DNA of 15,138 nucleotides from an uncultured Methanosarcinales archaeon (GTDB lineage Archaea; Nanobdellota; Nanobdellia; Woesearchaeales; JACPIF01), in assembly GCA_964491335.1 (NCBI GenBank), contig CAZBGH010000014.1, positions 1 through 15,138 on the forward strand, read 5' to 3'. The translations under genes were made by a program, and so were the position numbers. The notes under the pieces were generated by a model. It ran no database searches. It was not told where the DNA came from and was given only the letters and a program-made list of their open reading frames with translations. Shown piece by piece: positions 601 through 15,138 of the stretch (position 1 is its first letter; every line of letters begins with the position of its first letter).

Positions 601-606
601 TCTTTT

Positions 607-760: not shown

Positions 761-787
761 GTTTATTGTTGTTTATTGTTGTTTATT
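761..787. repeat. Tandem decamer gtttattgtt x about 2.7
   Basis: gtttattgtt gtttattgtt gtttatt, read directly. It overlaps the TAA stop (783-785) of the 783..1631 gene. Confidence 0.85.
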
Positions 788-1631
788 TTGCTCTCTTTAT
801 TAGAGTAGTAATATAAAACCTGTTAAAATATATCCAGAAGTAAATAAATACATATGCAATCCATGCAAATACAGTTAAGTAAAATGGGTAGTATTTTATA
901 TATAAAATAGGGTCCCTAAATATTGTTACAGCTGCAATAGTACTAGTGACAAAATAAAGAATCACGTAAAAGGATATAAATACCAGAAAGGTTAAAAAAA
1001 GTGGCATTAGTTTCCATAATTTCTTACTGAAAATTGCTCTAAAAACTGATTTAAGCAGAATAATAGTGCTAAAATTACTAGATTTCTTATTAACAAAAAA
1101 CTCTGTGGCTGATAGATTATATACTAAATAGAAAACTATTGCTGTAGATATAGTGATAATATCCCTGAAATAAGGAAAAAAGTCTGCTCTAAGTGTGTAA
1201 GATAAAACGTTCATAATAACCATTAAAAATGTAAAGAAAACAATAAAGATTAGTAGATTAAGGAGATATAGTTTTAGTAGTCTCTTTAGATCTAATTTTG
1301 TTTTTAACTTATTTTTTATAATATCCATTATACTATATCTAAAGAATGTAAGTGATAATATTAATAATGCTACATAGATAAGCATACTAAATATAATTAA
1401 ATAATTGGTAATTCCTCTGAGAAATTGTGCTAGTGCCAAAAGTGTATTAGCATTAAAGAAGAGACCAGCTAAAAAGAGAATGGTATATATAGATAACACA
1501 AATAATACATCAAATAATACAATTAACCAATTATAATGCTTCAGTGCTAAAAATTGGGAATAAGCATCATAAAAAGCTGTTGACTTAAGTTTTCCTTTTA
1601 ATTTTGAGAGATACGAGAGATACTTTACCAT
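783..1631 (-). CDS. Polytopic integral membrane protein, function unknown (282 aa)
   Basis: ATG start at 1629-1631 and a long uninterrupted ORF. There are multiple F/I/L/Y-rich hydrophobic spans separated by short K/R-rich loops. I recognise no family motif. Confidence 0.6.
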   Translation of the reverse strand: MVKYLSYLSKLKGKLKSTAFYDAYSQFLALKHYNWLIVLFDVLFVLSIYTILFLAGLFFNANTLLALAQFLRGITNYLIIFSMLIYVALLILSLTFFRYSIMDIIKNKLKTKLDLKRLLKLYLLNLLIFIVFFTFLMVIMNVLSYTLRADFFPYFRDIITISTAIVFYLVYNLSATEFFVNKKSSNFSTIILLKSVFRAIFSKKLWKLMPLFLTFLVFISFYVILYFVTSTIAAVTIFRDPILYIKYYPFYLTVFAWIAYVFIYFWIYFNRFYITTLIKRAK

Positions 1632-3212: not shown

Positions 3213-3213
3213 T

Positions 3214-4980: not shown

Positions 4981-5012
4981 TATAATTAATTAAAAAAAGT
5001 GAAAATAAAAAT

Positions 5013-6158
5013 TTATTGTTTATATTCATTCACTTTCCCATCCTTAACAACCTTTAAAACATAATTGAATAAAGGATCTCCATTTGGGTCTAATGTCAAT
5101 AGACCAGCTGTTCCTTTTCTATTTTTAATTGAATAAAGGTGGGTTTTTATGCAATCTGCCTTAACTTCTCCACAACTTTCTATTGCTTCTTTAAGAATAT
5201 AAACTGCATCATAGGTTGTAGCTAAGTAAACAGGTGGCAATGCCCCAGCTAATTCTCCATATCTTGCTGTTAATTTATCTAAAAATTCTTTTGATATGGG
5301 ATCATCTGGATTAAATAGGGGTTCAGCAAGAATAGCCCCATCAATTTCATTTTTGTATTGTTCTAGCACATCCTTTCCAGCAGCTATTTCATTAGTATAT
5401 AATGGTCCTTCATACCCCAATTCCTTTAATTGCTTTAAAACTAAACCGAATTTTGCTGGAGTTTGAGGAACTATATAAACAGCATCTGGTTTTGCATTTA
5501 TTATTTTAGTTATCTGGGTTTTAAAGTCGCTTGCGTCTGAACTAAAAGACTCATCAGTAGATATTACCCCTCCTAATGATTTAAATTTATTTTTAAATAC
5601 TCTGGAAACAGCTTGTGCATAATCTGTTACCTCTGATAACACCCCTACTTTAACATATCCTTGTTCAATAGCTGACTCTGCTATTTTACTTCCAGAAGAA
5701 GCGTCAGAAGGAAAGTTTCTAAATACATAATCACCAGCATTAGTGATATCTGGGCTACCAGAGCCTGGAGAGAATAATATTACTTTACTAGATTCTGCTA
5801 TTGGTGCAGCACCCAATGTCTCTCCACTACATAGTCCTCCAAGAATCACTTTTACTCCATCAACATTTATTAATTTCTGTGCAGCTGATGAGGCTTCTTT
5901 TCCTGTGCATTTTCCATCTTCAAATATGATTTTTATCTGCTTTCCAAGGATTCCACCTTGTGAGTTAATTTCTTCAATAGCTAAAATAGCTGACTTTTGC
6001 AATGGCAATCCATAAGCAGCAGCATCCCCAGAAAGAGGCATTATAGAACCTATTTTAATTTCTCCAGTATCTCTAGACTTAAATATTAAAACTGCTGCAA
6101 GGATTATTATTGCTACTGCGACAATACCAATAATCCCCTTTGTTGTTTTTGTAGCCAT
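5013..6158 (-). CDS. livJ: ABC transporter substrate-binding protein, Leu/Ile/Val-binding (LivJ/K, type I periplasmic binding fold) family, membrane-anchored
   Basis: N-terminal TM anchor (GIIGIVAVAIIILAAVLIF), then IKIGSIMPLSGDAAAYG...A...EIN..GGILGKQIK..FEDGKC, which is typical of this family. It is first in the liv operon. GGGGGT lies about 8 nt upstream of the ATG. Confidence 0.8.
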   Translation of the reverse strand: MATKTTKGIIGIVAVAIIILAAVLIFKSRDTGEIKIGSIMPLSGDAAAYGLPLQKSAILAIEEINSQGGILGKQIKIIFEDGKCTGKEASSAAQKLINVDGVKVILGGLCSGETLGAAPIAESSKVILFSPGSGSPDITNAGDYVFRNFPSDASSGSKIAESAIEQGYVKVGVLSEVTDYAQAVSRVFKNKFKSLGGVISTDESFSSDASDFKTQITKIINAKPDAVYIVPQTPAKFGLVLKQLKELGYEGPLYTNEIAAGKDVLEQYKNEIDGAILAEPLFNPDDPISKEFLDKLTARYGELAGALPPVYLATTYDAVYILKEAIESCGEVKADCIKTHLYSIKNRKGTAGLLTLDPNGDPLFNYVLKVVKDGKVNEYKQ

Positions 6159-6291: not shown

Positions 6292-7284
6292 TTACTGTTT
6301 TTTCTTTGGTTTATTCTTCCTATAGAAATAATATATCAGTAAAATAAAAAGAATAAGCAATAACCCGCCAAATATATTCCCTACATTTGAACCAATTAAT
6401 TTTCTCTGCCACTCATAAAAAAGGAATTTTCCACCTAGCATATTATAAGCATTGAATTTCCATGTTCCACCATAGATAGAAACTATAATGCCCATAGCAA
6501 CTAATAATGACCCTCCGATTAGGTTACTGGTGTTAAAAGTAAATTTTCCAAGGTAGAATGTCTTGCCATGAACCCATTTTTTATTGCCTAAATTATATTT
6601 ATCATATAGCCCAGCAATAACAAATAAAGGTACTAATAACCCAATCCCATAAAAGAAAAATAATAGACTGGCATAAAAGAAATTATGCAAATAAGTAGCC
6701 ATTACTATTATTCCGACAAGTATTGGTCCTAAGCAAGCTGACCATCCTATAACAAAAAATGCTCCTAGCAGATATATTCCTAAATAATCGTGCCTAAATT
6801 GCCTATGCTTTATGAATGGTTTTATAAAAGATGAGAAACCTTTACCAAAAAACATCATTATACCAAGTAACATTAGCAATAAACCTGATACTTTAGCTAA
6901 GAAAGCATTTCCTTCCTGAAGGAATAAAAAAGATTTTCCTATATAAGAAGCAATAATCCCTAATATAATAAAAACTGTCATAAAGCCTGCTGAAAAAGCA
7001 AGCATAGCTTTCATTATATCCCTTTTTTCCTTAAAAGTAAAGGCAAAGAAAGCAGGTAATGTAGTAGCTGTGCATGGGCTTAAAAGACTAATAAAGCCTG
7101 CTAAAAAGGCTATAAGAAAGGATATATTCCTTACATAAGACTCTGCTTCTTTCTGATTTGACTCTATTGCACTTTGCAGGCTTTTTGGTAACTTAGGTAA
7201 CTCTTGAGAAAGGCTTATAGGGATTATTAGGCTAGCTACAATAGTTATTAACAAAAAGGCTAAAAATAGTTTAGTTTTATGCAT
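6292..7284 (-). CDS. ccdA: CcdA/DsbD-family transmembrane thiol-disulfide electron transporter (cytochrome c biogenesis protein transmembrane region family)
   Basis: Two family-typical membrane-embedded Cys motifs are present: LLSPCTATTLPAFF and GWSACLGPIL. The protein is polytopic. The track start at 7293 is TTG, so I trimmed it to the ATG at 7282-7284 (MHKTKLF...). Confidence 0.8.
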   Translation of the reverse strand: MHKTKLFLAFLLITIVASLIIPISLSQELPKLPKSLQSAIESNQKEAESYVRNISFLIAFLAGFISLLSPCTATTLPAFFAFTFKEKRDIMKAMLAFSAGFMTVFIILGIIASYIGKSFLFLQEGNAFLAKVSGLLLMLLGIMMFFGKGFSSFIKPFIKHRQFRHDYLGIYLLGAFFVIGWSACLGPILVGIIVMATYLHNFFYASLLFFFYGIGLLVPLFVIAGLYDKYNLGNKKWVHGKTFYLGKFTFNTSNLIGGSLLVAMGIIVSIYGGTWKFNAYNMLGGKFLFYEWQRKLIGSNVGNIFGGLLLILFILLIYYFYRKNKPKKKQ

Positions 7285-7341
7285 CTTAACCAATAGTATC
7301 TTTTATAGGGGCATTATATCTTTGTACGAGCCTGTGGGACT

Positions 7342-8439
7342 TCATGGAGCAAATACAATGGATATTACATCTCCGTCTTTCCATACATAATCTGCATATT
7401 GCTCATTTGCAATCCCATTAACAGCCATCTTTAATTTTCCACTTTTGCCATCTGAACAAAGGTCGTTATTGCAATACCCATCAAAACATTTGCTAGTAAA
7501 TCTTACTCCTAATTGATCAAAAATGCCTCCAACTCTAAGCTTTTCAGGCTCCAGAAGTTCTGTCCCACTTTCATCAATTTTCACTAAAGCATGAAAATGC
7601 AGCCTATCATTTTCTTTATGAGTATGCTGATTTTCCAAATCTCCTGCTTCAAGCGGAAGATGATAAGGTTTACCACAAACACTCATTGCCAATTGCGTGT
7701 GCCAGTGGACAGCTAAATTACATCCATCTTGGCCACATACAATAAACCCTCTTTCAGCTCCTGATTGATAGAAATAAGAAACACTGTATCCTAGTAGCAA
7801 AGCTAAAACACCAATCCCTATACCATAAATAATTGGAGCAATTCTAAACTTTTTAATAATTTTATCATCTTTATTTTTTCTGTTTTTTCTTTTTGATTTC
7901 TTACTGCAAAAAAGTGTTGAAAGTGATGCATACATACCAAAAGCTAAGCTTGCAATAGCAATAAAAATTGATCCAATAATAGAATATTCTGCTCGTTTAT
8001 CCTTTACGTTAATTTCAAAAGTAGGTGTTAAGCTATCTTGGTCATCAAGCCTTAACAAGAATTTGGAAAAATATCTTCCTGCAAAACTTGGTTTCCAGCT
8101 AAATGCGTATACTCCTTTTTGCACCTCAGAAATTGCTGCGTAATATATTGGCTTTCGTGTTTTGAAATCAAGCACTGAGCCTTGAACATCAATGCCAGTT
8201 GCCAACTTGCCATCAGGAGCTATAACGTGTACTGCAAATGACAGTTCCTTACCAACATAAAATCTCGTGTCTGAAGGTATAAATGTGATATCATATCCTT
8301 CAATGTGGAGGCTCTCGCCTTCTACTCCTTCAGGCAAAGAAGAATCTTCTACATGAGAAGTTGTAGTAGTCAGATTAAAAATACTCGCTAGGACTGTAAT
8401 CATCAACAAAAAATATATTTTCCTATTGTTCTCTAGCAT
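7342..8439 (-). CDS. Two-TM membrane protein with an N-terminal Ig-like extracytoplasmic domain and a C-terminal His/Cys-rich extracytoplasmic domain
   Basis: - Signal or anchor at the N-terminus.
- A beta-rich domain over residues 40-145 (YtkA/FixH-like in composition).
- TM, basic loop (KKSKRKNRKNKDDK), TM.
- A C-terminal domain with CGQDGC, HWH, HTH, HFH and CFDGYCNNDLC.
- ATG start and TGA stop. Confidence 0.65.
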   Translation of the reverse strand: MLENNRKIYFLLMITVLASIFNLTTTTSHVEDSSLPEGVEGESLHIEGYDITFIPSDTRFYVGKELSFAVHVIAPDGKLATGIDVQGSVLDFKTRKPIYYAAISEVQKGVYAFSWKPSFAGRYFSKFLLRLDDQDSLTPTFEINVKDKRAEYSIIGSIFIAIASLAFGMYASLSTLFCSKKSKRKNRKNKDDKIIKKFRIAPIIYGIGIGVLALLLGYSVSYFYQSGAERGFIVCGQDGCNLAVHWHTQLAMSVCGKPYHLPLEAGDLENQHTHKENDRLHFHALVKIDESGTELLEPEKLRVGGIFDQLGVRFTSKCFDGYCNNDLCSDGKSGKLKMAVNGIANEQYADYVWKDGDVISIVFAP

Positions 8440-8593
8440 TTTTACAGGGTCCTTGATATTTTACACATGTCTCTTTAAATCATTACATACAAATCCTTAT
8501 TCTACGAAATAGAGTCATTCACAAAAAAATCCCTAAAAATTTTCTTGGCTTAGTAAATTATAGTATATTATTTTAAGACTTTATTTTACAATT

Positions 8594-9007
8594 TTAGTTT
8601 ATAACTATGCTCCCCTTCATATCAGCATGTCCAGCACCACAATATACTGTGCATATCATTGTATTGAATGTTCCTGTTTTATCTGCAATAAATTCTATAA
8701 CCTTTGTCTCGTTAGGGGGCAATCTTACACTATCAACGCCAAAATCAGGAATACCTATGCCGTGAGTTACATCAATACTTGTAACCTTAAGCCTTACTTT
8801 ATCACCTTTATTTACTTCAATAACATTTGGGATAAATTCCCACTGTTTTGCTATAACATCAAACTCCTTAAGGTTCCCATTTTGAAATTCTTCTACTGTA
8901 GTTTTACCACCATTTTGGCTCTCTTGTGTTTTAGCACAGCCTGCTAGGATAAACAGAACTAATACTGTTAGTGTAGTGATGAAGTAAAAAATACTTTTCT
9001 TTGTCAT
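8594..9007 (-). CDS. CuA-motif cupredoxin-domain lipoprotein (cytochrome oxidase subunit II C-terminal domain-like), 137 aa
   Basis: Signal peptide with lipobox LAGC. The pattern AKQWEF.P..IEV.KGDKV.L.VTS.DVTHG..IP matches the COX2 cupredoxin fold. The ligand motif C119-TVY-C123-GAG-H127-AD-M130, together with H82, fits the CuA consensus H...CxxxCGxxHxxM. Confidence 0.75.
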   Translation of the reverse strand: MTKKSIFYFITTLTVLVLFILAGCAKTQESQNGGKTTVEEFQNGNLKEFDVIAKQWEFIPNVIEVNKGDKVRLKVTSIDVTHGIGIPDFGVDSVRLPPNETKVIEFIADKTGTFNTMICTVYCGAGHADMKGSIVIN

Positions 9008-9014
9008 TGTACTT

Positions 9015-9518
9015 TTAAGTTTGATTTACAATTGGTTTTAATTTATACCCGATTGGAAACATAATAATTCTTATTGATCCTTTGATGAAAAAATCTCGTA
9101 TATCTGGATCATGGAGTGCATCAGTCAAAACAGATTCTGGGTTGGACCCACTTTCAACTTGACTTGCGTAATGTCTAATTCTGCTATCTAACGGCACATC
9201 TAATAAACCGAGAGGCAAATTTCCAATAGCACCACCTGAAGCTATGTAATCGCAGAGATAAGCTTTTATTGGAGGAGTCTTAATTTCAGATGTAGGTATA
9301 CCAAGCATTTCATGAACGCCTAACCTTTGCAACTCACGAATGGCTAATTGTTTTCTCTTTTTTATTGGTTTTACAATAATCTGATAACCTAAAAGATAAG
9401 ATGGAATAATAACTAGAGATATTGCAGCACCTATTGCTGAAACTATCTCCTTTTTATGTTGACTAATATATGACACACCTTGATTATATAAATCCATAAG
9501 ACTTCCCAAATCGGTCAT
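9015..9518 (-). CDS. Hypothetical single-pass membrane protein (167 aa)
   Basis: ATG start. There is one TM (IVSAIGAAISLVIIPSYLLGYQII) followed by KKRK, so the C-terminal domain is probably cytoplasmic. It ends 7 nt before the cupredoxin ATG. I recognise no motif. Confidence 0.55.
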   Translation of the reverse strand: MTDLGSLMDLYNQGVSYISQHKKEIVSAIGAAISLVIIPSYLLGYQIIVKPIKKRKQLAIRELQRLGVHEMLGIPTSEIKTPPIKAYLCDYIASGGAIGNLPLGLLDVPLDSRIRHYASQVESGSNPESVLTDALHDPDIRDFFIKGSIRIIMFPIGYKLKPIVNQT

Positions 9519-9566
9519 TTTACTTGCCCTTTTTACTCAAGATAAAGCCTATGAAATATCTAATCC

Positions 9567-10871
9567 TTATTGTGCCTGAGGCTGAGGCTCAATAATCTGG
9601 TCAGTCTGAAGATCGTGGTAAATTCCCATAACAGAAGGTGCCCTGAAAGTATATACAGTTTCATTTGTATCTGGATCCTTATCTACTGTTCCAACCTGGT
9701 TCCAGATTTGGATTACTTGTGGATATGCCTCAAGGTCATTTGACATGAACATTGTTGGCACTTTAGTAATATTATATTCTTCTAGCAATTCTTTCCCATT
9801 TTTGGTAGCTATATCATAGGTGCTTTCATGCCCTAAAACAACCCCGAGATTTCCAAGAATTTGTTTGTGAAGACTTATATCATAACATTTTGTGCAGTTT
9901 TTATCTGTAATAAATACAACTCCTACCAGTCCAGTAACTTTTTCTTTCTCAGGATCATAGTAAGGAGCATTTATATTTCTAAAGACATATTTACCATCTG
10001 ATTCAACTGTACCCACATTCTGCCAATTGCTCTTTACTATCTCATACTCTCCAATCTCATTAGTAAATACAATTGACGGAACTTTCTTGAGGTCATATCT
10101 TTTAATTATTTCCTTTCCTTCATTTGAATCTGAATCATAAGAAATCTCTTTACCAAAGAAAATTCCACTTCTCTTTAATTGATTTAGAAGCTGTGAGAGG
10201 TCAGTACATTTATCACAATCCTTTTTATAAATTAATGAAGACTCAACAATTCCTTTTATCTTACCGCTTTGTACGTCAATATAAGGTGGAAGAATCTGAG
10301 TTAACACATAAGCATCTGATTTTTTCTCTAGCAACTGAGCAAGAGCTGCTACTTTATCAAGCTCGCCTGTTACAATTAGTGTAGGCACTCTAGTAATTCC
10401 ATATTTTGCAATTAATTCTTTTGCATCTCTATCATTAACAGTATATTCCTCTTCTTTTATTAGCTTAACCTTATTTTCTTTTATAAGACTAATTATTGAC
10501 TCAATGTTAAAGCACTCTTTGCAATTACTGGCTTTTATGATTGTTAACTTTATATTAGCTGGCTTTAATGCCTCTTCTAAAATTTTCTGAGCGTTATTTA
10601 TTTTATTCTGTGTAAGAAATAATATTCCAACATTAACTAATAGAATTAAAGTAAGGCCTATTATAAGAATATCCCTCAGTTTTTCCCAGTTAGGGCCAGA
10701 TTTGGAATATTCTACTTTAGCGGTATCTTTACCAGTATCTTTTACTAGTTTACTCACTTTAGGTGTTTGCTTTTGCTTTTCCTCTTTATATGCCTGTTTA
10801 TGCTTTCCCTCTACTTTGAGAGGTTTTTCTTGAATTATGTTGCCTTTCTGTATCTTACGCTTTTTTTCCAT
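9567..10871 (-). CDS. Membrane-anchored protein with three tandem thioredoxin-like (CxxC) domains
   Basis: The track start at 10886 is TTG, so I trimmed it to the ATG at 10869-10871 (MEKKRK...). The protein has a Lys-rich N-terminus and a TM (ILIIGLTLILLVNVGILFL). Three units of about 105 aa follow, each with a CxxC (CKEC, CDKC, CTKC at track residues 122, 224, 331). Each unit also has a downstream GKE[LI]...Y.[IL].[RK]VP[TS] cis-Pro segment. Confidence 0.8.
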   Translation of the reverse strand: MEKKRKIQKGNIIQEKPLKVEGKHKQAYKEEKQKQTPKVSKLVKDTGKDTAKVEYSKSGPNWEKLRDILIIGLTLILLVNVGILFLTQNKINNAQKILEEALKPANIKLTIIKASNCKECFNIESIISLIKENKVKLIKEEEYTVNDRDAKELIAKYGITRVPTLIVTGELDKVAALAQLLEKKSDAYVLTQILPPYIDVQSGKIKGIVESSLIYKKDCDKCTDLSQLLNQLKRSGIFFGKEISYDSDSNEGKEIIKRYDLKKVPSIVFTNEIGEYEIVKSNWQNVGTVESDGKYVFRNINAPYYDPEKEKVTGLVGVVFITDKNCTKCYDISLHKQILGNLGVVLGHESTYDIATKNGKELLEEYNITKVPTMFMSNDLEAYPQVIQIWNQVGTVDKDPDTNETVYTFRAPSVMGIYHDLQTDQIIEPQPQAQ

Positions 10872-10910
10872 TATATCACAATACAATTATTTTTATTATT
10901 ACTATACTTT

Positions 10911-11010
10911 GCAACGAGGTGTTTCAGTGGTGCTTGTCTGTCCGCCCATTAATGTTACATCATGGATTGGCGGACTTTTGGCATAGCCTCGTAGTTCGAG
11001 GCTCGTTTGC
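10911..11010 (-). other. GC-rich structured island in an AT-rich intergenic region (candidate 5' leader, cis-regulatory RNA or small RNA)
   Basis: - Perfect 7-bp hairpin gtccgcc (10940-10946) / ggcggac (10969-10975) with a 22-nt loop.
- Perfect 7-bp hairpin agcctcg (10985-10991) / cgaggct (10997-11003) with a 5-nt loop.
- Enclosing helix gcaacg (10911-10916) / cgtttgc (11004-11010) with one bulged t.
- Strand assignment is tentative. Confidence 0.3.
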
Positions 11011-11139
11011 TAATTGTTATAAATAAAAACTACTTTTAGTGAATCATTTGCAGATTATTTTATTTAAAATTAAAACAATCTTAAGTTAAGGACATGAGCC
11101 AATTTGTTGGTAAATATTATAAACTTGGATATTAATAAC

Positions 11140-11613
11140 CTAAAAACTGGTAATACTACACCCGCTCAATTGTGCAAGCCTATCAAAACTCTGCACTCTC
11201 TCATATTTTTGCCCGTTTATAACCCACGTAGGAGTTAATTTAATATCCTGTCCTTCCCTGTAATCCTTATAGTTGATGTATTTAAATGAGTTTCCAAACA
11301 TTGCAGCTTGCTCCTTTGTATAGCTGCACCAGTCAATTGCACCGTACATTATTGCTCCTTTTTCAGTTAAACATTTAGCTAAGTTGTCATAAATACCATA
11401 CTTAAACTTTGATGCATAAATGCCATACCCTAAACCACTAAATATAACTATTACTCCTATAATTGTACTTATAAAATATAATTTTGTTCTTTTTCTTTTG
11501 CTCTGCTGAGCTTTTAGAATGTCATCATCTACTCTTTTTCTTACTGCCTCTGCATGTTCCCTTTGCTTTTGCAAATGTAATTCATGCCTTTCTTTTTTAG
11601 AAAGATTTTCCAT
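11140..11613 (-). CDS. Membrane-anchored thioredoxin-like protein (VKOR-associated Trx-like domain family), monothiol CxxT variant
   Basis: The track start at 11637 is TTG and the first ATG is at 11611-11613 (MENLSKKER...). The protein has a charged N-terminus and a TM (LYFISTIIGVIVIFSGLGYGIY). Next comes CLTEKGAIMYGAIDWCSYTKEQAAMFG...LTPTWVINGQKYERVQSFDRLAQLSGC. This matches my recollection of the GAKMYGAYWCPHCxxQK..FG...YPTW.ING..Y.G...L..L family pattern, but with WCSYT in place of WCPHC. Confidence 0.7.
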   Translation of the reverse strand: MENLSKKERHELHLQKQREHAEAVRKRVDDDILKAQQSKRKRTKLYFISTIIGVIVIFSGLGYGIYASKFKYGIYDNLAKCLTEKGAIMYGAIDWCSYTKEQAAMFGNSFKYINYKDYREGQDIKLTPTWVINGQKYERVQSFDRLAQLSGCSITSF

Positions 11614-11637
11614 TTTTCTATATCTGTTCTTATTCAA

Positions 11638-11853
11638 TTACGCAGACTCTGCATTATATGTTAAGAGTTGTTCTGCTGTGCTTGTGTCTACTGCTGGAGC
11701 AGTTACTCCACATCCGCCGCCTATTACTCCTTGCCCCTGCTGCTGGCCTTGGTATGCTGCGTAACCTGAAGGCTGGCTCTTTGTGCACCCTATTAATAAC
11801 AATAAAGAAGTTCCTATTATTGCTATTATTAACAAAATACTTTTAGTGCTCAT
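11638..11853 (-). CDS. Small Gln/Gly-rich lipoprotein with an internal VIGGGC motif (71 aa)
   Basis: ATG start with GGGGGT 9 nt upstream. It has a signal peptide with lipobox LIGC, then QGQQQGQGVIGGGCGV and a 23-aa tail. Its stop directly abuts the next ORF. Confidence 0.6.
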   Translation of the reverse strand: MSTKSILLIIAIIGTSLLLLIGCTKSQPSGYAAYQGQQQGQGVIGGGCGVTAPAVDTSTAEQLLTYNAESA

Positions 11854-11862
11854 TTTTCAAAA

Positions 11863-11893
11863 ACCCCCTTTCCATCTAAATTTTTTTATATAA
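11863..11893 (-). promoter_or_regulatory. Putative RBS (GGGGGT, 11863-11868) and TATA-like box (TTATATAA, 11886-11893) for the 71-aa gene
   Basis: Read directly. The TATA-like octamer lies about 33 nt upstream of the ATG in a 184-bp AT-rich spacer. Confidence 0.35.
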
Positions 11894-12037
11894 TTGTATT
11901 TACACAATAATTTATACTAAATTATATGTTATCTGCTTATCTTAAAGTATTAATTAATTTTATATTCTATTTACAGTCTAAGTTAAAAATATTGATTTAT
12001 TATTAAAGCTTTGCTAAAATATACCTAACAAAGATAG

Positions 12038-12262
12038 CTAACAGCCCCCTACCATACTTGGAAGGTTCTGTATGCTCTTGGGCACTTGTCCCTGTGCATT
12101 TCCACCCTGGCCTTGGCTTACCACATTCTGCGAGCTGCTGCCTATTGTTGTTATTGCGCCGCTACCAATTTTACTTTTTAGGCTAACTAACTGCACAGCT
12201 TGGACTAATGTTACAAGTACCAAGACTACCAATACAATCACTATCACAGTATTCTTATTCAT
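12038..12262 (-). CDS. Small anchored protein: N-terminal TM/signal, Ser/Gly/Gln-rich linker, C-terminal LPSMVGGC tail (74 aa)
   Basis: The ATG at 12260-12262 has AGGAGGT 7 nt upstream. The hydrophobic N-terminus is VIVIVLVVLVLVTLVQAV, followed by a low-complexity linker. The protein ends ...SIQNLPSMVGGC-TAG. Confidence 0.7.
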   Translation of the reverse strand: MNKNTVIVIVLVVLVLVTLVQAVQLVSLKSKIGSGAITTIGSSSQNVVSQGQGGNAQGQVPKSIQNLPSMVGGC

Positions 12263-12263
12263 A

Positions 12264-13028
12264 TTAACAACCTCCTACCATACTAGGCAACTGGCCTATG
12301 CTTGATATATCCCCAGTGCTTAACTTACTCAGTAGATCCCTATCATTTAAATTTGTAGCTGTTAGTTCCATCTTATTGCTAAGTAGAGCAGTAGCTTTTT
12401 CTACCATGTTTCTTGGGTAATATAAAGATTTCCATCTAATTAATTCTAAAAGTATTTCTTCATCTGTGTATGTATCTGGATAATTCCTAATGAAATATTT
12501 TGCTAGCCCTCTAAAAGATGCTGCATGTGAGCATCCGCATAAATCTCTTCCATTATGATCTGTCACTGCTGGAGCTGAGCAGCAGAACTCACATGATATT
12601 TTTGAAGTAACATCAATATACCTTTGTTTTTCTTCTGCGGTTAAGGTTTTGGTTGGTATAGAATAGTCAAGATTTGCTAGCACATTCAAGCTATTTACTG
12701 GATCGTCATAGCTAACACCGATCTCAGGGCCCCATTTTGGAGTTCCTGTTGGGATTAAAGCATTAATTGCATCTTGTACATCATCACCTGTTCTTGCTGC
12801 TTTTAAAGCAAGCTCTCCTGTTGAACTCTTAATAGTTAATTTATCAGCAGATTTACCTGTTGATCTTCCAAATCCAGAAATAGAGCTAGATAACTTACCG
12901 ATTGATAAAGTTGAAGGTCCTTGACCTAAATTAATACTAGATATCTGATACCAATTAAAAAGAATAAGCAGTACAACCACGCCTATAATATACAACCCGT
13001 ATTTCTCAACTGGATTACTGCTCTTCAT
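12264..13028 (-). CDS. Anchored Cys/His-cluster protein with C-terminal LPSMVGGC tail (254 aa)
   Basis: - ATG with GAGGGGAG upstream.
- N-terminal TM (LYIIGVVVLLILFNWY).
- Ser/Gly linker, then a globular region containing SCEFCCSAPAVTDHNGRDLCGCSHAASF.
- Ends ...SSIGQLPSMVGGC-TAA, 1 nt before the next ATG. Confidence 0.75.
   Translation of the reverse strand: MKSSNPVEKYGLYIIGVVVLLILFNWYQISSINLGQGPSTLSIGKLSSSISGFGRSTGKSADKLTIKSSTGELALKAARTGDDVQDAINALIPTGTPKWGPEIGVSYDDPVNSLNVLANLDYSIPTKTLTAEEKQRYIDVTSKISCEFCCSAPAVTDHNGRDLCGCSHAASFRGLAKYFIRNYPDTYTDEEILLELIRWKSLYYPRNMVEKATALLSNKMELTATNLNDRDLLSKLSTGDISSIGQLPSMVGGC
12270..12276 (-). promoter_or_regulatory. Shine-Dalgarno AGGAGGT for the 74-aa gene, embedded in the V-G-G codons of the upstream gene's tail
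   Basis: Plus-strand acctcct at 12270-12276. The minus strand reads atg gtA GGA GGT tgt taa t ATG. Confidence 0.7.
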
Positions 13029-13225
13029 TAACTCCCCTCGTAATGTAAACCTTTATTCGATTAAAAAATAAATCCTAATTGAAAATTAACCAATAGTTAA
13101 TCATCTTAGGAAACATTTACAAGTATTGTAAAGCATTAAGTATATAAAGTTTTCGATTTGTGGTTCTGGTGCATAGAAGGTTCGTTTACTTATATATCTA
13201 TTTATTGGTGCGATATGGTTGGTTT

Positions 13226-13444
13226 TTATCCTTTTAATGTGGATATATTCCAAACCTTTGGTCTAAATTTAACACTACCCTCTGCTACAGCTTGGTCAAA
13301 TCTATGGTTTGATGGAGATTCGGTTACTCTTTGGTTTGCCTTAGTTATGGATTCGGCTCTAAAAATAAATTTTTTACCAAATCTTCCCAATAGAACCCAT
13401 TCATCACCACCTATATCTGTAGTTGGTATATTAATATTCCCCAT
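13226..13444 (-). CDS. Hypothetical small protein (72 aa), third gene of a coupled three-gene module
   Basis: The track start at 13456 is GTG. The ATG at 13442-13444 lies 1 nt after the upstream TAA (13446-13448). The sequence is MGNINIPTTDIGGDEWVLLGRFGKKFIF..., and I recognise no family. Confidence 0.5.
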   Translation of the reverse strand: MGNINIPTTDIGGDEWVLLGRFGKKFIFRAESITKANQRVTESPSNHRFDQAVAEGSVKFRPKVWNISTLKG

Positions 13445-13445
13445 T

Positions 13446-13817
13446 TTAATATTCACTTATCTTATTTTCCTTCTCAAGTTTCTCCATAATTCTTTCTATT
13501 TGTTCAGAGGGTATTGGTATTGTTCTAATCAAATCAACCATACTTATCCTTATTTTTCCGATACTTTTCAACTTAAGAAGTTGTTCTTTTATTATTTCTT
13601 CAGCTTGCTCATCTGATAAATTAGTTATTAGTTGTTTATCACTTAAAACTTTTCCTTCAAGAGCTTCTACTTTTCTTTGCAATTCTCTAATAAATCCGTA
13701 CAAAACGACATCTTTTCTATCCTCAAAGTCAAGAGCAATCTCTATCGTTATATCCTCATAAGGAACTTTAATCTTTAATTTCCCATCTTCTCCAGTGAAT
13801 TTCGATAGTTTGTGCAT
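13446..13817 (-). CDS. Hypothetical protein with a coiled-coil middle and a possible C-terminal winged-helix segment (123 aa)
   Basis: The ATG at 13815-13817 overlaps the upstream stop (TAATG). Composition is charged and helical (RELQRKVEALEGK). The C-terminus IRISMVDLIRTIPIPSEQIERIMEKLEKENKI looks wHTH-like. Confidence 0.6.
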   Translation of the reverse strand: MHKLSKFTGEDGKLKIKVPYEDITIEIALDFEDRKDVVLYGFIRELQRKVEALEGKVLSDKQLITNLSDEQAEEIIKEQLLKLKSIGKIRISMVDLIRTIPIPSEQIERIMEKLEKENKISEY

Positions 13818-14104
13818 TACTCCATCTCTTCCAATAACTCAATAAATTTTTGAGAGGTAGTTGTATCTTGAGTACTGATATGGAGAATCTTCTTTGCAAT
13901 CTCCTCTTTATTTTCATGATTTAATACAATTGGATATGGAACTTCTTTTTTACTATCTTTTTCACTAACAATAAAGACTATACTAATAGGTTCTATATGT
14001 AGATTCCTCTCTTTTAGTTTTTTCAAAAATTTATCTACGAGAAAATCTTTAATGCTGATGCCCTCAAAATATACAATGTTCTTCTTTTTAATTATCTTAG
14101 GCAT
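13817..14104 (-). CDS. Hypothetical small protein (95 aa), first gene of the three-gene module
   Basis: The track start at 14230 is GTG, and the extension it adds looks non-coding (TATA-rich). The internal ATG at 14102-14104 has GGTGAT 4 nt upstream and a TTTATATA box about 37 nt upstream. The sequence is MPKIIKKKNIVYFEGISIKDF... Confidence 0.5.
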   Translation of the reverse strand: MPKIIKKKNIVYFEGISIKDFLVDKFLKKLKERNLHIEPISIVFIVSEKDSKKEVPYPIVLNHENKEEIAKKILHISTQDTTTSQKFIELLEEME

Positions 14105-14140
14105 CACAATCACCACTATGCTTAAACATATACTTGAAAC

Positions 14141-14148
14141 TATATAAA
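14141..14148 (-). promoter_or_regulatory. TATA-like box (minus strand TTTATATA) in the divergent intergenic region 14105-14232
   Basis: Plus-strand tatataaa at 14141-14148. A second atatataaag at about 14166-14175 could serve the divergent plus-strand ORF. Confidence 0.35.
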
Positions 14149-14232
14149 TATTACTACTATAGGTGATATATAAAGTTTTATCAATCTTGTGAAGTTGCCT
14201 TACACTATACTTACAAAGTTTTACATCCACTT

Positions 14233-14517
14233 ATGCCTTATCCACAATTAACAAAAGAAGAATCAGATAAAGCACATGAAGATAACGCTATATGGAAGAA
14301 GAAGGCTGTATATTGGCACAATGCCATTCCTATTTTTAATTATGATATCAGGCACTCCTTAACTAATGATGTTCAATTAGTAACCAATATTAAGCAATTA
14401 GAACTTAATGAAAAACTATATGCAGGAATTCAATGGAATAATTGGATTAATATTATTGTTTCTGCCATAAATCTATTCTTGCTTATAGTTAATATTGTCT
14501 TGCTTGTTAAGGGATAG
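14233..14517 (+). CDS. Hypothetical tail-anchored small protein (94 aa)
   Basis: ATG start. A hydrophilic N-terminal region is followed by a single C-terminal TM (INIIVSAINLFLLIVNIVLLV). It is divergent from the three-gene module and is the only credible plus-strand ORF. Confidence 0.45.
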   Translation: MPYPQLTKEESDKAHEDNAIWKKKAVYWHNAIPIFNYDIRHSLTNDVQLVTNIKQLELNEKLYAGIQWNNWINIIVSAINLFLLIVNIVLLVKG

Positions 14518-14519
14518 TT

Positions 14520-15017: not shown

Positions 15018-15138
15018 TCAGTAAGAAATCTGGAGCTATTATAACTACAGCAAGCCCTGCTAGTGTTGCTAAAGAAATCAATGTTTTTCTTGCTACTGAT
15101 TTTACCTTTTGTTCAAGTGAACTTCTCATTCTTCCCAT
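14974..15138 (-). CDS. Short ORF at the window edge (at least 54 aa) with a signal-anchor-like segment, possibly the 5' end of a gene interrupted by the IS remnant
   Basis: Translates as MGRMRSSLEQKVKSVARKTLISLATLAGLAVVIIAPDFLLTSSYKCNEENPSWW-TAA. It is in a different frame from the transposase remnant and runs into it. It may extend beyond the window. Confidence 0.2.
   Translation of the reverse strand: MGRMRSSLEQKVKSVARKTLISLATLAGLAVVIIAPDFLLTSSYKCNEENPSWW

What the first reader, a model, noticed from the sequence alone, without database searches (positions are those of the whole stretch)
6292..13028. Extracytoplasmic thiol-redox / copper-type gene island without any cytochrome c maturation or oxidase partner
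Nine consecutive same-strand genes all encode exported or membrane-anchored proteins rich in redox or metal motifs:
- CcdA, which imports reducing power.
- A His/Cys-rich two-domain protein.
- A CuA-motif cupredoxin lipoprotein.
- One hypothetical protein.
- A 3x CxxC Trx-fold protein.
- A monothiol Trx-like protein.
- Three small Cys-bearing anchored proteins.

The usual clients of CcdA are absent from the window. These include CcsBA/ResBC, cytochromes c with CxxCH, Sco, and oxidase subunit I. I saw no CxxCH motif in any ORF of the island. Taken together, this looks like a self-contained envelope system of unknown function, such as copper handling or detoxification, or maintenance of reduced surface thiols.
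Basis: inference. Interest (0 to 1): 0.7.

Follow-up and report, generated by a model that had tools for sequence, protein, structure and literature searches.

The report
DPANN archaeal envelope thiol–copper gene cluster
This stretch is one copy of a gene cluster conserved across the tiny DPANN archaea: it joins an electron importer, thioredoxin-like proteins, a copper (CuA) protein and several uncharacterised cysteine-tipped membrane proteins under one predicted repressor, most likely to protect or manage cell-surface thiols and copper.

Summary
Nine consecutive minus-strand ORFs (6292-13028) all carry a membrane anchor or signal. They include a CcdA, a lipobox cupredoxin with all CuA ligands, a 3x CxxC thioredoxin-fold protein and a monothiol (CSYT) relative of the VKOR-linked Trx domain. 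None has CxxCH.

The window comes from a DPANN archaeon, and the cluster is strongly syntenic in 80 DPANN genome loci.
- **Core:** a Cys-rich protein ending ...MVGGC (A), a mini-protein with the same anchor and tail (b, 78/79), and the triple-Trx protein (E, 52/58).
- **Frequent partners:** in loci with at least 8 kb on both sides, CcdA is present in 24/28 and the CuA cupredoxin or a four-His protein in 23/28.
- **Regulator:** a BlaI-type repressor with a short BlaR1-like protease is present in 17/28. Its predicted operator, TTTACA-N5-TGTAAA, sits on A's promoter in this window.
- **Copper link:** copper P-type ATPases and CopG/DUF411 are enriched nearby.

My best reading (confidence about 0.5) is an inducible envelope thiol/copper homeostasis system, analogous to bacterial Scs and TlpA systems. 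A, b, c and H have no Pfam or PDB match, and A has no structural match in the PDB. I could not do a whole-genome check for oxidases. The 167-aa ORF is not conserved. The regulator genes lie outside the window.

The parts
13141..13155 (-). Archaeal promoter-like BRE/TATA element (cgaaaac tttatata) upstream of gene A
   Evidence: Read directly from the sequence. It lies about 21 nt upstream of the operator centre. The promoter function is inferred, not tested.
13116..13132 (.). Predicted operator of the BlaI-type repressor: palindrome TTTACAATACTTGTAAA, 88 nt before the A start codon
   Evidence: TACA-N5-TGTA occurs twice in the window against 0.33 expected. The same dyad lies upstream of A in 22 of 71 related loci, at 0.56 per kb there versus 0.025 per kb elsewhere. 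A 1-mismatch copy lies 111 bp upstream of the repressor gene on the source contig.
12264..13028 (-). Gene A: 254-aa membrane-anchored Cys-rich protein with a helical domain carrying CEFCC...CGCSH and an invariant C-terminal LPxMVGGC tail. It belongs to an uncharacterised DPANN family.
   Evidence: 131 homologues, all unnamed or labelled 'hypothetical protein', and 318 clusters at 50% identity. Invariant residues: C146, C149, C150, C164, G165, C166, H168 and P248-M-V-G-G-C254. AF2 gives pLDDT 84.9, with the tail at 81-89. No structural or sequence match in the PDB and no Pfam or NCBIfam hit.
12038..12262 (-). Gene b: 74-aa mini-protein with the same anchor motif (VQAxQL) and the same C-terminal NLPxMVGGC tail as A, joined by a Gly/Ser/Gln-rich linker
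   Evidence: Present directly downstream of A in 78 of 79 loci. Family consensus. The anchor-end motif [NQ]xxQ[IL] is shared with A: 71/80 for b, 63/78 for A, and 0 in D, G and H.
11638..11853 (-). Gene c: 71-aa lipobox protein (LIGC) with a conserved GGGCGV motif
   Evidence: Lipobox. Family consensus from 42 sequences. Present in 40 of 80 loci, always next to D.
11140..11637 (-). Gene D: membrane-anchored monothiol thioredoxin-like protein (WCSYT), a relative of the Trx domain fused to bacterial VKOR. The called gene is 11140-11613 (157 aa).
   Evidence: 3kp8/3kp9 at E 2.6e-7, with CPHC aligned to CSYT. C..YT and two further Cys are conserved in 54 sequences. Present in 47 of 80 loci.
9567..10886 (-). 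Gene E: membrane-anchored protein with three thioredoxin-fold domains, each with CxxC and a cis-Pro motif. The called gene is 9567-10871 (434 aa).
   Evidence: Pfam Thioredoxin_3 at 37.6 bits, plus Glutaredoxin. NCBIfam PDO family at 1.6e-11, below cut-off. CKEC, CDKC and CTKC. All three CxxC conserved in 66 sequences. Nearest PDB entry is P. furiosus PDO 1a8l, E 0.004. Present within 3.5 kb downstream of A in 52 of 58 loci.
9015..9518 (-). ORF F: 167-aa single-pass hypothetical protein. It is lineage-specific and probably not part of the conserved system.
   Evidence: No Pfam or NCBIfam hit. No homologue in any of the 80 related loci. Absent from the collinear closest relative L011.
8594..9007 (-). 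Gene G: 137-aa lipobox cupredoxin with the full CuA ligand set (H82, C119, C123, H127, M130). It is the stand-alone 'DPANN nosZ-like' type.
   Evidence: Lipobox LAGC. Described as a clade in PMC10936187. Cupredoxin present in 16 of 28 complete loci. The full CuA motif is present in 21 of 80 loci.
7342..8439 (-). Gene H: 365-aa protein made of signal, Ig-like domain, two TM helices and a conserved extracytoplasmic domain with four invariant His (HxH...HxH...H) plus Cys, ending in a beta-grasp-like segment
   Evidence: Invariant H245, H247, H272 and H281 across 27 diverse members. Weak ThiS hit. Present in 15 of 28 complete loci. No Pfam or PDB relative. The AF2 model is poor, pLDDT 57.
6292..7293 (-). 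Gene I: CcdA-type thiol-disulfide transporter (DsbD_TM). The called gene is 6292-7284 (330 aa).
   Evidence: Pfam DsbD_TM at 37.6 bits against cut-off 27.1. The LSPC and GWSAC cysteines are conserved in 52 sequences. Present within 10 kb of A in 24 of 28 complete loci.
783..1631 (-). Possible displaced accessory gene: a 282-aa polytopic membrane protein that directly follows CcdA in relatives
   Evidence: It lies immediately downstream of CcdA in L011, L012, L054 and L073, and is present in 6 of 80 loci. No family hit. In the window it is separated from CcdA by the Liv operon (1750-6158), which is absent from all 80 loci.

Best explanation
The island is the local copy of a DPANN-wide, co-regulated envelope system for thiol and copper homeostasis.

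**Proposed mechanism**
1. CcdA carries reducing equivalents from cytoplasmic thioredoxin across the membrane.
2. The membrane-anchored triple-thioredoxin protein E receives them and keeps extracytoplasmic cysteines reduced or correctly paired.
3. Its main clients are the co-encoded proteins:
   - the lone, glycine-flanked cysteines of A and b (C-terminal ...MVGGC) and of lipoprotein c (GGGCGV);
   - the monothiol Trx D, which can hold partners as mixed disulfides;
   - the two CuA cysteines of cupredoxin G, which must be reduced before copper insertion.
4. The tethered thiolate and thioether tails, and the four-His domain of H, bind or buffer Cu(I)/Cu(II) at the membrane surface. They may hand copper to the cupredoxin.
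5. Expression is controlled by a BlaI-type repressor bound to TTTACA-N5-TGTAAA on the A promoter. The repressor is inactivated by a short BlaR1-like protease. The only external parts of that protease are an N-terminal CxxC and a GCx6C loop, which would sense oxidation or metal.

**What is shown:** gene identities, motifs, conservation, synteny, operator enrichment and copper-gene enrichment.

**What is inferred:** the direction of electron flow, copper binding by A, b, c and H, the sensing mode of the protease, and the promoter.
For: **Synteny**
- A-b-E is essentially invariant (b 78/79, E 52/58).
- In loci with at least 8 kb on both sides: CcdA 24/28, G or H 23/28, BlaI plus M56 17/28.
- The closest relative, L011, is collinear in the order A-b-c-D-E-G-I.

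**Redox parts**
- CcdA keeps both catalytic Cys.
- E has three conserved CxxC plus cis-Pro motifs.
- D is a conserved CxxT variant of the VKOR-partner Trx domain.

**Shared features of A and b**
- Both carry the invariant MVGGC tail and the same anchor motif.
- The tail is modelled at pLDDT 81-89, meaning ordered rather than floppy.

**Regulation**
- The operator dyad is 22-fold enriched upstream of A and is present in the window.
- A near-copy lies upstream of the repressor gene.
- The M56 proteins are 211-273 aa, too short for a penicillin-binding domain, and carry conserved N-terminal CxxC and GCx6C.

**Copper**
- G has the full CuA ligand set.
- P1B-type ATPases with CPC and HMA motifs lie within 10 kb of A in 10-11 of 80 loci, against about 2% expected (P about 6e-7).
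- In L091, DUF411/CopG sits inside the cluster and a copper ATPase lies beside it.
- A G homologue lies between a ferric-reductase-like gene and a copper ATPase, next to a multicopper oxidase.
- The contig's DoxX scores 64.7 bits to the Cu-RiPP maturation family HvfX.

**Precedents**
- The Scs system links DsbD-like and Trx-like proteins to copper stress (PMC10907172).
- TlpA must reduce CuA cysteines, and a flexible C-terminal tail of PcuC delivers copper (PMC6669012).
Against: - No biochemical or expression data exist for any component.
- A, b, c and H have no detectable relative of known function, so copper binding by them is conjecture.
- The core A-b-E occurs in many full-length loci without a cupredoxin or copper ATPase within 10 kb. 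Copper may therefore be one client among several.
- The repressor has no Cys (27 of 39 have none), so it is not a CopY-type direct copper sensor.
- Its NCBIfam matches are below cut-off.
- No Sco or PCuAC motif is present.
- The 2% background used for the ATPase enrichment is my own assumption.
Confidence: 0.5

Rival explanations
1. It is a general extracytoplasmic protein-folding system (disulfide isomerase and reductase) for secreted and surface proteins of DPANN cells. CcdA would keep a PDI-like triple-Trx protein reduced. A, b, c and D would be cofactors or redox-buffer thiols. Copper genes would be neighbours only because the cupredoxin is one Cys-containing client.
For: - A-b-E plus CcdA is far more constant than the cupredoxin or copper ATPase.
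- E most resembles archaeal protein disulfide oxidoreductases and PedC-like proteins.
- VKOR, DoxX/MauE and a second CcdA-like (SfLAP) gene lie nearby on the contig.
- One A-family member is fused to an FKBP-type prolyl isomerase.
Against: - Copper ATPases are enriched nearby, and CopG/DUF411 lies inside the cluster in some genomes.
- G or H is present in 23 of 28 complete loci.
- An invariant Met next to the terminal Cys and a four-His domain are better explained by metal binding than by folding catalysis.
- A housekeeping foldase would not obviously need a dedicated sensor-protease and repressor pair.
Confidence: 0.22
2. It is a minimal extracellular electron-transfer chain centred on the stand-alone CuA cupredoxin. 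The thiol proteins and CcdA would serve only to assemble the CuA centre. The cupredoxin would pass electrons to or from an external partner such as O2, N2O or a host cell, as suggested for the 'DPANN nosZ-like' protein.
For: - The full CuA electron-transfer ligand set is conserved.
- The clade has been proposed as a nitrous-oxide-reductase-like protein (PMC10936187).
- G homologues sit next to ferredoxin and Rieske genes (L092) or a ferric-reductase-like flavocytochrome (L094).
- G-DoxX adjacency occurs in several loci.
- CuA sites are known to need Trx-type reductases and tethered chaperones.
Against: - There is no catalytic partner. No CuZ domain is present (137 aa; 56 bits against a NosZ cut-off of 625).
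- No oxidase subunit I and no cytochrome c motif are present.
- Complementation of a P. aeruginosa nosZ mutant failed.
- The core A-b-E is often found without G.
- No Sco or PCuAC is present.
Confidence: 0.13
3. The cysteine-tipped, membrane-tethered proteins A, b and c are surface adhesion or attachment devices. They would form reversible disulfides with host-cell surface proteins of these episymbiotic archaea. The Trx/CcdA machinery would reset them.
For: - DPANN archaea are largely host-attached.
- The lone Cys sits at the end of long flexible linkers.
- Type IV pilus-like loci lie just upstream in two genomes.
- The monothiol Trx D could stabilise mixed disulfides.
Against: - There is no direct evidence.
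- The pilus adjacency is seen in only 2 loci examined that way, and most loci have BlaI/M56 upstream instead.
- The A tail is modelled as ordered, which does not suggest a freely reaching arm.
- This reading does not explain the copper-gene enrichment.
Confidence: 0.05
4. The nine genes are a chance juxtaposition of unrelated exported proteins with no joint function.
For: - The 167-aa ORF is not conserved.
- There are intergenic gaps of 150-250 nt inside the island.
- The neighbourhood shows rearrangement: a transposase remnant and the Liv insertion.
Against: - Eight of the nine genes recur together, in conserved order and strand, in dozens of genomes down to about 32% identity of A.
- A conserved operator lies upstream of A.
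Confidence: 0.02

Closest known systems
Scs (suppressor of copper sensitivity) system, ScsABCD of Salmonella, Proteus and Caulobacter
   Same: A membrane electron importer of the DsbD superfamily feeds extracytoplasmic thioredoxin-fold CxxC proteins. At least one of these is membrane-anchored, and a small accessory membrane protein is present. The system is linked to copper and oxidative stress in the envelope, and its components bind Cu(I) (PMC10907172; PMC3322552 and PMC8900818 listed).
   Different: - It is not homologous beyond the CcdA/DsbD core and the Trx fold.
- It is archaeal.
- The importer is a minimal CcdA, not the multi-domain ScsB.
- The Trx protein has three tandem domains.
- The core also contains families with no Scs counterpart (A, b, c, H) and a CuA cupredoxin.
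- The regulator is a BlaI/BlaR1-like pair rather than CpxR/CueR-type control (the latter is from my own knowledge).
TlpA-ScoI-PcuC pathway for CuA assembly, with CcdA/DsbD as upstream reductant
   Same: A CuA domain whose two cysteines must be kept reduced by a membrane-anchored thioredoxin. Membrane-tethered helpers are involved. A flexible C-terminal tail rich in copper ligands performs the transfer (PMC6669012).
   Different: - No Sco (CxxxCP...H) or PCuAC (H(M)x10Mx21HxM) motif is present in any island protein.
- The CuA protein is a stand-alone lipoprotein without oxidase subunit I.
- The core thiol genes are more widespread than the cupredoxin.
'DPANN nosZ-like' CuA proteins (Zhang et al., mBio 2024, PMC10936187)
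   Same: Gene G matches the description: a short protein with only the Cx3Cx3H CuA site and no CuZ. Its HMM score to NosZ is about 56 bits, within their reported range. It is predicted to lie outside the membrane, in genomes without other respiratory genes.
   Different: - That paper proposed a role in N2O reduction and stated that the genes were found only in oxygen-deficient zones, with fatty-acid genes around them.
- Here the gene sits in a thiol/copper cluster, and many of the related loci come from MAGs whose isolate names are labelled groundwater.
- This points to a different, copper/redox-homeostasis context.
BlaI/BlaR1 (MecI/MecR1) and CopY repressor systems
   Same: A winged-helix Penicillinase_R repressor is paired with an M56 HExxH membrane protease. 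It is transcribed divergently from the regulated operon. The operator is a TACA/TGTA dyad.
   Different: - The protease is only 211-273 aa and lacks the extracellular penicillin-binding sensor domain. Its predicted external segments instead carry CxxC and GCx6C.
- The repressor lacks the CxCx4CxC metal site of CopY.
- The dyad spacer is 5 nt.
Bacterial VKOR-thioredoxin fusion (Synechococcus, PDB 3kp9)
   Same: Protein D is a clear homologue of its Trx-like domain, including the flanking MYGA..WC...Q..FG and TPTW.I.G motifs. A stand-alone VKOR is encoded 9 kb away on the contig.
   Different: - The resolving cysteine is replaced (CSYT), and this is conserved across the family. D therefore cannot cycle as a normal dithiol oxidase.
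- It is encoded beside CcdA-linked genes, not fused to VKOR.

Membership tests
CcdA / DsbD_TM thiol-disulfide transporter (gene I) | Pfam DsbD_TM match above the gathering score | tested here: met
   37.6 bits against cut-off 27.1.
CcdA / DsbD_TM thiol-disulfide transporter (gene I) | Two conserved catalytic cysteines in TM segments | tested here: met
   The cysteines of LSPC and GWSAC are conserved in at least 90% of 52 family members.
CcdA / DsbD_TM thiol-disulfide transporter (gene I) | Transfers electrons from cytoplasmic thioredoxin to an external Trx-like acceptor | not testable with these tools
   This needs biochemistry. Only the co-location with E supports it (24 of 28 complete loci).
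CuA cupredoxin domain (COX2 / NosZ C-terminal type; gene G) | Cupredoxin fold with ligand set H...Cx3Cx3Hx2M | tested here: met
   Pfam COX2 at 28.4 bits against cut-off 22. All ligands align with the Thermus CuA domain.
Cytochrome c oxidase subunit II (gene G) | N-terminal two-helix membrane anchor and a partner subunit I | tested here: not met
   G has a single lipobox signal peptide. NCBIfam CoxB scores 55.7 bits against cut-off 147.7. No subunit I is present in the window or on the contig.
Nitrous-oxide reductase NosZ (gene G) | Seven-bladed propeller with the CuZ site preceding the CuA domain | tested here: not met
   The protein is only 137 aa. It scores 56.1 bits against cut-off 625 and matches only model positions 480-576.
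Thioredoxin-fold oxidoreductase / archaeal PDO-like (gene E) | Trx fold with CxxC active site and cis-Pro loop | tested here: met
   Thioredoxin_3 at 37.6 bits against cut-off 24.8. There are three CxxC motifs. Each is conserved together with the LP/VPT motifs in 66 sequences.
Thioredoxin-fold oxidoreductase / archaeal PDO-like (gene E) | Membership of the two-domain PDO equivalog (TIGR02187) | tested here: not met
   44 bits against cut-off 185. E has three domains plus a TM anchor rather than two soluble domains.
VKOR-associated Trx-like domain (gene D) | Sequence homology to the Trx domain of bacterial VKOR | tested here: met
   3kp8 at E 2.6e-7 and 3kp9 at E 7.4e-7.
VKOR-associated Trx-like domain (gene D) | CxxC redox pair | tested here: not met
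   CPHC aligns with CSYT. C..YT is conserved in the family.
BlaI/BlaR1-type regulation (genes outside the window; operator inside) | Penicillinase_R repressor, M56 HExxH protease and a TACA/TGTA dyad operator | tested here: met
   Precomputed Pfam families on the contig. The two genes are paired in 39 loci. HExxH is conserved. The dyad is enriched 22-fold upstream of A.
BlaI/BlaR1-type regulation (genes outside the window; operator inside) | Extracellular penicillin-binding sensor domain on the protease | tested here: not met
   The proteins are 211-273 aa, against 585 positions in the BlaR1 model. The match covers only positions 100-221.
CopY/TcrY copper repressor | C-terminal CxCx4CxC metal-binding motif | tested here: not met
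   The contig's repressor has no cysteine, and 27 of 39 homologues have none. The NCBIfam CopY_TcrY score is 31.8 bits against cut-off 121.95.
Scs copper-sensitivity suppressor system | Homologous ScsB, ScsC, ScsD and ScsA proteins | tested here: not met
   NCBIfam and Pfam scans of all nine proteins gave only generic DsbD_TM and Trx hits. The resemblance is functional, not orthologous.
Scs copper-sensitivity suppressor system | Copper-induced expression and Cu(I) binding by the Trx components | not testable with these tools
   This needs transcriptomics and metal-binding assays.
Sco / PCuAC CuA-assembly chaperones | Sco CxxxCP...H motif or PCuAC H(M)x10Mx21HxM motif | tested here: not met
   Neither motif occurs in any island or neighbouring protein, and there are no Pfam hits.

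The most novel reading that the evidence does not exclude
A, b and c would be a new class of membrane-tethered 'thiol-arm' proteins, each carrying a lone Gly-flanked cysteine on a flexible tether. A would have a novel Cys/His-cluster domain that docks the shared MVGGC tail.

Together with CcdA, the triple-Trx protein and the stand-alone CuA cupredoxin, they would form a previously unknown extracytoplasmic redox chain in non-respiring DPANN archaea. That chain would couple cytoplasmic thioredoxin to a copper centre and an external acceptor. In effect it would be a quinone-independent thiol oxidase or electron outlet, rather than merely a stress-repair system.
Probability: 0.1. Interest if true: 0.85.

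Novelty: new variant of a known kind. Interest (0 to 1): 0.6.

Why it matters
- **Likely importance to the organisms.** DPANN archaea have about 1-Mb genomes with very few redox genes. Yet this cluster is retained across four or more phyla-level lineages, which argues that it matters for life at their cell surface.
- **A new context for the 'nosZ-like' CuA protein.** Its function is an open question, with a published hypothesis of N2O reduction. This cluster gives it a concrete genomic setting and points towards copper and thiol homeostasis. That makes the question testable through specific partners, a defined operator and a candidate sensor.
- **New targets for study.** Four conserved protein families have no known relatives. 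One has a confident model with no structural match in the PDB and an invariant C-terminal MVGGC motif.
- **A possible new kind of sensor.** The BlaR1-like sensor has replaced its antibiotic-binding domain with external cysteines. This could be a new type of envelope redox or metal sensor.

Tried and rejected
- **Structure search for A:** AF2 gave a good model (pLDDT 84.9), but Foldseek against the PDB found nothing (best E 0.66). A profile search of PDB sequences also found nothing.
- **Remote homology for A:** a profile search of 1.84 billion representatives returned 318 clusters; the 150 listed are mostly of similar length and the tool gives no annotation.
- **Longer A-family proteins:** scanning these for fused domains gave nothing consistent. 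There was a single FKBP fusion.
- **Protein H:**
  - phmmer against the PDB gave zero hits.
  - A word-indexed homologue search gave only 7 hits.
  - The AF2 model was poor (pLDDT 57), so its Foldseek matches are meaningless.
  - A 27-sequence profile against the PDB gave zero hits.
  - Pfam scanning of the members gave nothing consistent.
- **Literature:**
  - 'MVGGC' returned no relevant paper.
  - DPANN + CcdA + disulfide returned none.
  - archaea + BlaR1 + BlaI + thioredoxin returned nothing relevant.
- **Ideas considered and rejected:**
  - Cytochrome c-type haem motifs in A (CGCSH and CEFCC are not CxxCH).
  - An Erv/ALR-like sulfhydryl oxidase (no fold match).
  - A sortase or archaeosortase sorting signal for LPxMVGGC (no hydrophobic segment follows the motif).
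  - A type IV pilin signal for b (no matching signal seen; the pilus-gene adjacency occurs in only two of the loci inspected).
  - RiPP precursors for b and c (no modifying enzyme in the cluster).
  - Homology between the 282-aa membrane protein and the 276-aa one in L009 (not supported).
- **Not possible:** the whole-genome check for oxidases, because only +/-10 kb pieces of genomes can be fetched.

Full report
**1. The observation**

The window (GC about 0.28-0.37) carries nine consecutive minus-strand ORFs between 6292 and 13028. A simple hydropathy scan finds at least one hydrophobic segment in each. Two of them (71 aa and 137 aa) have a lipobox, LIGC and LAGC.

- **CcdA (6292-7293):** passes the Pfam DsbD_TM cut-off.
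- **137-aa protein:** passes the Cupredoxin_1 and COX2 cut-offs. It aligns with the Thermus ba3 CuA domain at E 3.5e-13 to 1.6e-11, with every CuA ligand in place.
- **439-aa protein:** has CKEC, CDKC and CTKC and thioredoxin and glutaredoxin matches.
- **165-aa protein:** is homologous to the Trx domain of Synechococcus VKOR (E 2.6e-7), with CPHC replaced by CSYT.

No island protein contains CxxCH. Nothing in the window, or on the 28.6-kb contig it comes from, matches cytochrome c maturation proteins, Sco, PCuAC or oxidase subunit I.

**2. Origin**

The window is an exact piece of JGI metagenome contig Ga0212128_10000500. The named homologues of its most distinctive protein are labelled Woesearchaeota, Aenigmatarchaeota or Nanoarchaeota. 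A scan of one genome per species returned 80 loci. They come from those groups and from Micrarchaeota, apart from several labelled 'uncultured Methanosarcinales' (which I take to be mislabelled) and one labelled 'Binatia'. The organism is therefore a DPANN archaeon.

**3. Anatomy, in transcription order**

- **A (12264-13028):**
  - It has an N-terminal anchor and a mostly helical domain, and it ends in LPSMVGGC.
  - Across 15 members down to about 40% identity, the invariant residues are C146, C149, C150, C164, G165, C166, H168 and the last residues P-x-M-V-G-G-C.
  - AF2 models it well (pLDDT 84.9, pTM 0.72). The C-terminal tail scores 81-89, so it is predicted to be ordered. I could not inspect the coordinates, so where the tail sits is unknown.
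  - Nothing in the PDB resembles it by fold (best E 0.66) or by profile.
  - Pfam and NCBIfam give nothing.
  - The family has 318 clusters at 50% identity.
- **b (12038-12262):** 74 aa, with a similar anchor, a Gly/Ser/Gln linker and the same NLPSMVGGC end. A and b also share a polar motif, [NQ]xxQ[IL], at the outer end of the anchor (63/78 and 71/80). A minority of E proteins share it (14/65), and D, G and H never do. In b the sequence VQA|FQL could alternatively be a signal-peptidase site (my inference).
- **c (11638-11853):** a lipobox protein with a conserved GGGCGV.
- **D (11140-11637):** the monothiol Trx. C..YT and two further cysteines are conserved in 54 sequences.
- **E (9567-10886):** an anchor plus three Trx domains. 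All CxxC and cis-Pro motifs are conserved in 66 sequences. The nearest solved relative is the P. furiosus protein disulfide oxidoreductase (E 0.004).
- **F (9015-9518):** no family and no homologue in any related locus.
- **G (8594-9007):** the CuA cupredoxin.
- **H (7342-8439):** signal, Ig-like domain, two helices, then a conserved external domain with four invariant histidines (H245, H247, H272, H281) plus cysteines, and a beta-grasp-like end.
- **I (6292-7293):** CcdA, with both catalytic cysteines conserved.

**4. Synteny**

I searched six-frame ORFs of the 80 loci with the window's proteins using jackhmmer, plus motif rules for the tiny proteins. Many loci are cut by contig ends, so raw counts are lower bounds.

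| Gene | Loci out of 80 |
|---|---|
| A | 80 |
| b | 79 |
| E | 69 |
| CcdA | 56 |
| D | 47 |
| c | 40 |
| BlaI-like repressor | 39 |
| M56 protease | 39 |
| H | 35 |
| Cupredoxin | 32 |
| DoxX | 10 |
| SfLAP-like | 10 |
| VKOR | 4 |
| F | 0 |

Counts corrected for available flank:
- b within 1.5 kb downstream of A: 78/79.
- E within 3.5 kb downstream of A: 52/58.
- In the 28 loci with at least 8 kb on both sides:
  - CcdA 24
  - cupredoxin 16
  - H 15
  - cupredoxin or H 23
  - repressor plus protease 17

The usual order is protease and repressor transcribed leftwards, then A, b, (c, D), E, (G), (H) and CcdA transcribed rightwards. A more distant clade has the order A-c-D-b-E-G-CcdA. The closest relative on a long contig (L011; A is 74% identical) is collinear in the order A-b-c-D-E-G-CcdA. 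It lacks F, and its H lies elsewhere.

**5. Regulation**

On the source contig a Penicillinase_R (BlaI/CopY family) repressor and an M56 (BlaR1-like) protease lie upstream of A. They are separated from it by about 2.4 kb that contains a transposase fragment and small ORFs. In many other loci the pair is transcribed divergently and lies within about 100-150 bp of A.

A dyad, TACA-N5-TGTA (usually TTTACA-N5-TGTAAA), lies upstream of A in 22 of 71 loci with enough sequence. Its density there is 0.56 per kb, against 0.025 per kb in the rest of the loci. The window has it at 13116-13132, 88 nt before the A start codon. Just upstream is a BRE/TATA-like element, cgaaaac-tttatata (13141-13155), so the dyad would overlap the transcription start (promoter assignment inferred). 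A one-mismatch copy lies 111 bp upstream of the repressor gene.

The proteases are only 211-273 aa, too short for the penicillin-binding domain of BlaR1. By the positive-inside rule, their only external parts are the N-terminus, which often starts MCTEC or CSSC, and the TM2-TM3 loop with GCx6C (22 of 37 full-length proteins by strict regular expression). The repressor itself usually has no cysteine, so it is not a CopY-type copper sensor. The natural inference is that the protease senses thiol oxidation or a thiophilic metal outside the cell.

**6. Copper links**

- **The cupredoxin clade:**
  - G belongs to the short CuA-only clade reported in DPANN as 'nosZ-like'. Its function is unknown.
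  - Those genomes lack other respiratory genes, and complementation of a nosZ mutant was negative (PMC10936187).
  - G's scores to NosZ (56.1 bits) and CoxB (55.7 bits) are far below the family cut-offs.
- **Nearby ATPases:**
  - P-type ATPases with CPC or CPH and N-terminal CxxC motifs lie within 10 kb of A in 10-11 of 80 loci.
  - For a single-copy gene in a roughly 1-Mb genome I would expect about 2%, giving P about 6e-7. That background is my assumption.
- **G homologues on long contigs elsewhere:**
  - One locus (L091) has a membrane-bound MarR-like regulator with a Cys loop.
  - It is followed by A, b, DUF411/CopG (SCGCC), E, a c-like peptide, D and G.
  - A copper-type ATPase lies a few genes further on.
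  - Another locus (L094) has a G homologue between a ferric-reductase-like flavoprotein and a copper ATPase. It sits beside a multicopper oxidase and an outer-membrane efflux protein.
  - A third (L092) lies between a ferredoxin gene and a Rieske gene.
- **DoxX:** the contig's DoxX protein scores 64.7 bits (cut-off 80) to HvfX, a Cu-binding-RiPP maturation family. Cupredoxin-DoxX adjacency recurs in the distant clade.

**7. Proposed mechanism**

I propose that CcdA imports electrons and E distributes them. The clients would be the lone, glycine-flanked cysteines of A, b and c, the monothiol D, and the CuA cysteines of G. The thiolate and thioether tails and the four-His domain would bind or buffer copper at the membrane surface and may load the cupredoxin. 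The BlaR1-like protease would sense external thiol oxidation or metal and relieve repression.

Precedents:
- CuA cysteines need a membrane-anchored thioredoxin (TlpA) before metallation, and the flexible Met/His-rich C-terminal tail of PcuC is what delivers copper (PMC6669012).
- The Scs system couples a DsbD-like importer and Trx-like, Cu(I)-binding proteins to copper and redox stress (PMC10907172).

The shown parts are identities, motifs, synteny, the operator and the copper-gene enrichment. Electron flow, copper binding and sensing are inferred. I put about 0.5 on this reading.

**8. Rivals**

- **General disulfide-isomerase or folding system (0.22).** This fits the greater constancy of A-b-E-CcdA and the nearby VKOR/DoxX genes. 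It does not explain the copper enrichment, the invariant Met or the four-His domain.
- **CuA-centred electron-transfer chain (0.13).** This fits the intact CuA site and the ferredoxin, Rieske and ferric-reductase neighbours of homologues. It lacks any catalytic partner, and the core often occurs without G.
- **Thiol-based host attachment (0.05).** This is speculative.
- **Chance juxtaposition (0.02).** This is excluded by the synteny.

**9. Comparison with known systems**

It works most like Scs or the TlpA/DsbD branches, but it is not a member of either. Only the CcdA core and the Trx fold are shared. Sco and PCuAC motifs are absent. G fails the defining features of both COX2 and NosZ. D fails the CxxC criterion. 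The regulator pair fails the BlaR1 sensor-domain criterion and the CopY metal-site criterion.

No paper in the searchable library describes the cluster or the MVGGC motif. I therefore rate it a new variant of a known kind of system, built largely from uncharacterised families.

**10. Limits**

Only the cited paper speaks to it.
- I could not inspect model coordinates to see where the A tail lies.
- H could not be modelled or matched.
- All functional statements about A, b, c and H are inference.

Noticed in passing
window 1750-6158: A five-gene branched-chain amino-acid-type ABC transporter operon (LivK/H/M/G/F-like) sits between CcdA and a 282-aa membrane protein. In relatives L011, L012, L054 and L073 that membrane protein directly follows CcdA. 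No Liv homologue occurs in any of the 80 related loci, so this looks like a lineage-specific insertion into the island.
   Followed up: partly
window 325-711 (called gene about 325-672): A small membrane-anchored protein with a His/Met-rich repeat, HHKDMMNNKDMINHKDMMRMH, which looks like a copper-binding motif. It has no family hit and no homologue in the 80 loci.
   Followed up: partly
window 13029-15138: Between gene A and the BlaI/M56 regulator pair (outside the window) lie a transposase remnant (rve_3, 14520-14834) and several small ORFs without family matches. In many related loci the regulator pair lies within about 100-150 bp of A, so this 2.4-kb stretch looks like mobile-element debris that split regulator from operon.
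   Followed up: partly
L006 1987-6210 (same contig, beyond the window's right end): A second redox neighbourhood: a SfLAP-like (CcdA-like, NPC motif) membrane protein, a stand-alone VKOR with CIVC, a DoxX/MauE protein scoring to the Cu-RiPP maturation family HvfX, and a 408-aa pyridine-nucleotide-disulfide oxidoreductase.
   Followed up: partly
L009 16197-16961 and 16 other loci: Homologues of bacterial prolipoprotein diacylglyceryl transferase (Lgt, PF01790) lie within 10 kb of A in 17 of 80 DPANN loci. They are next to genes for lipobox proteins (c and the cupredoxins), which hints at bacterial-type lipoprotein modification in these archaea.
   Followed up: partly
L073 3957-6527, L084 6710-9265, L086 14448-16889: ORFs of about 850 aa whose C-terminal part matched CcdA in my search. 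By eye, the N-terminal part looks like a DUF255/YyaL-type thioredoxin domain (SAPAWCYWCHV) followed by a large helical domain, possibly a ready-made importer-plus-acceptor fusion. I did not run a family scan on them.
   Followed up: no
L009 4262-7530 and L010 532-6395: Type IV pilus-like loci (T2SSE and T2SSF; one ATPase carries an intein) lie just upstream of the cluster on the opposite strand in two long contigs. This was not assessed in the other loci.
   Followed up: no
window 10371-10383: A second exact TACA-N5-TGTA match (TACAATTAGTGTA) lies inside gene E. It may be chance, or an internal operator.
   Followed up: no
L091 3074-3547: In one lineage the BlaI/M56 pair is replaced by a regulator of about 157 aa. 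It has two membrane helices flanking a CSHGSSC loop and a C-terminal winged-helix (MarR/DUF7343) domain, so it may be a one-component membrane-bound version of the same sensor idea.
   Followed up: no
L012 19473-20635 and L089 6280-10819: Some genomes carry a second A (or A-b) copy a few kb from the first, which indicates paralogous expansion of the family.
   Followed up: no
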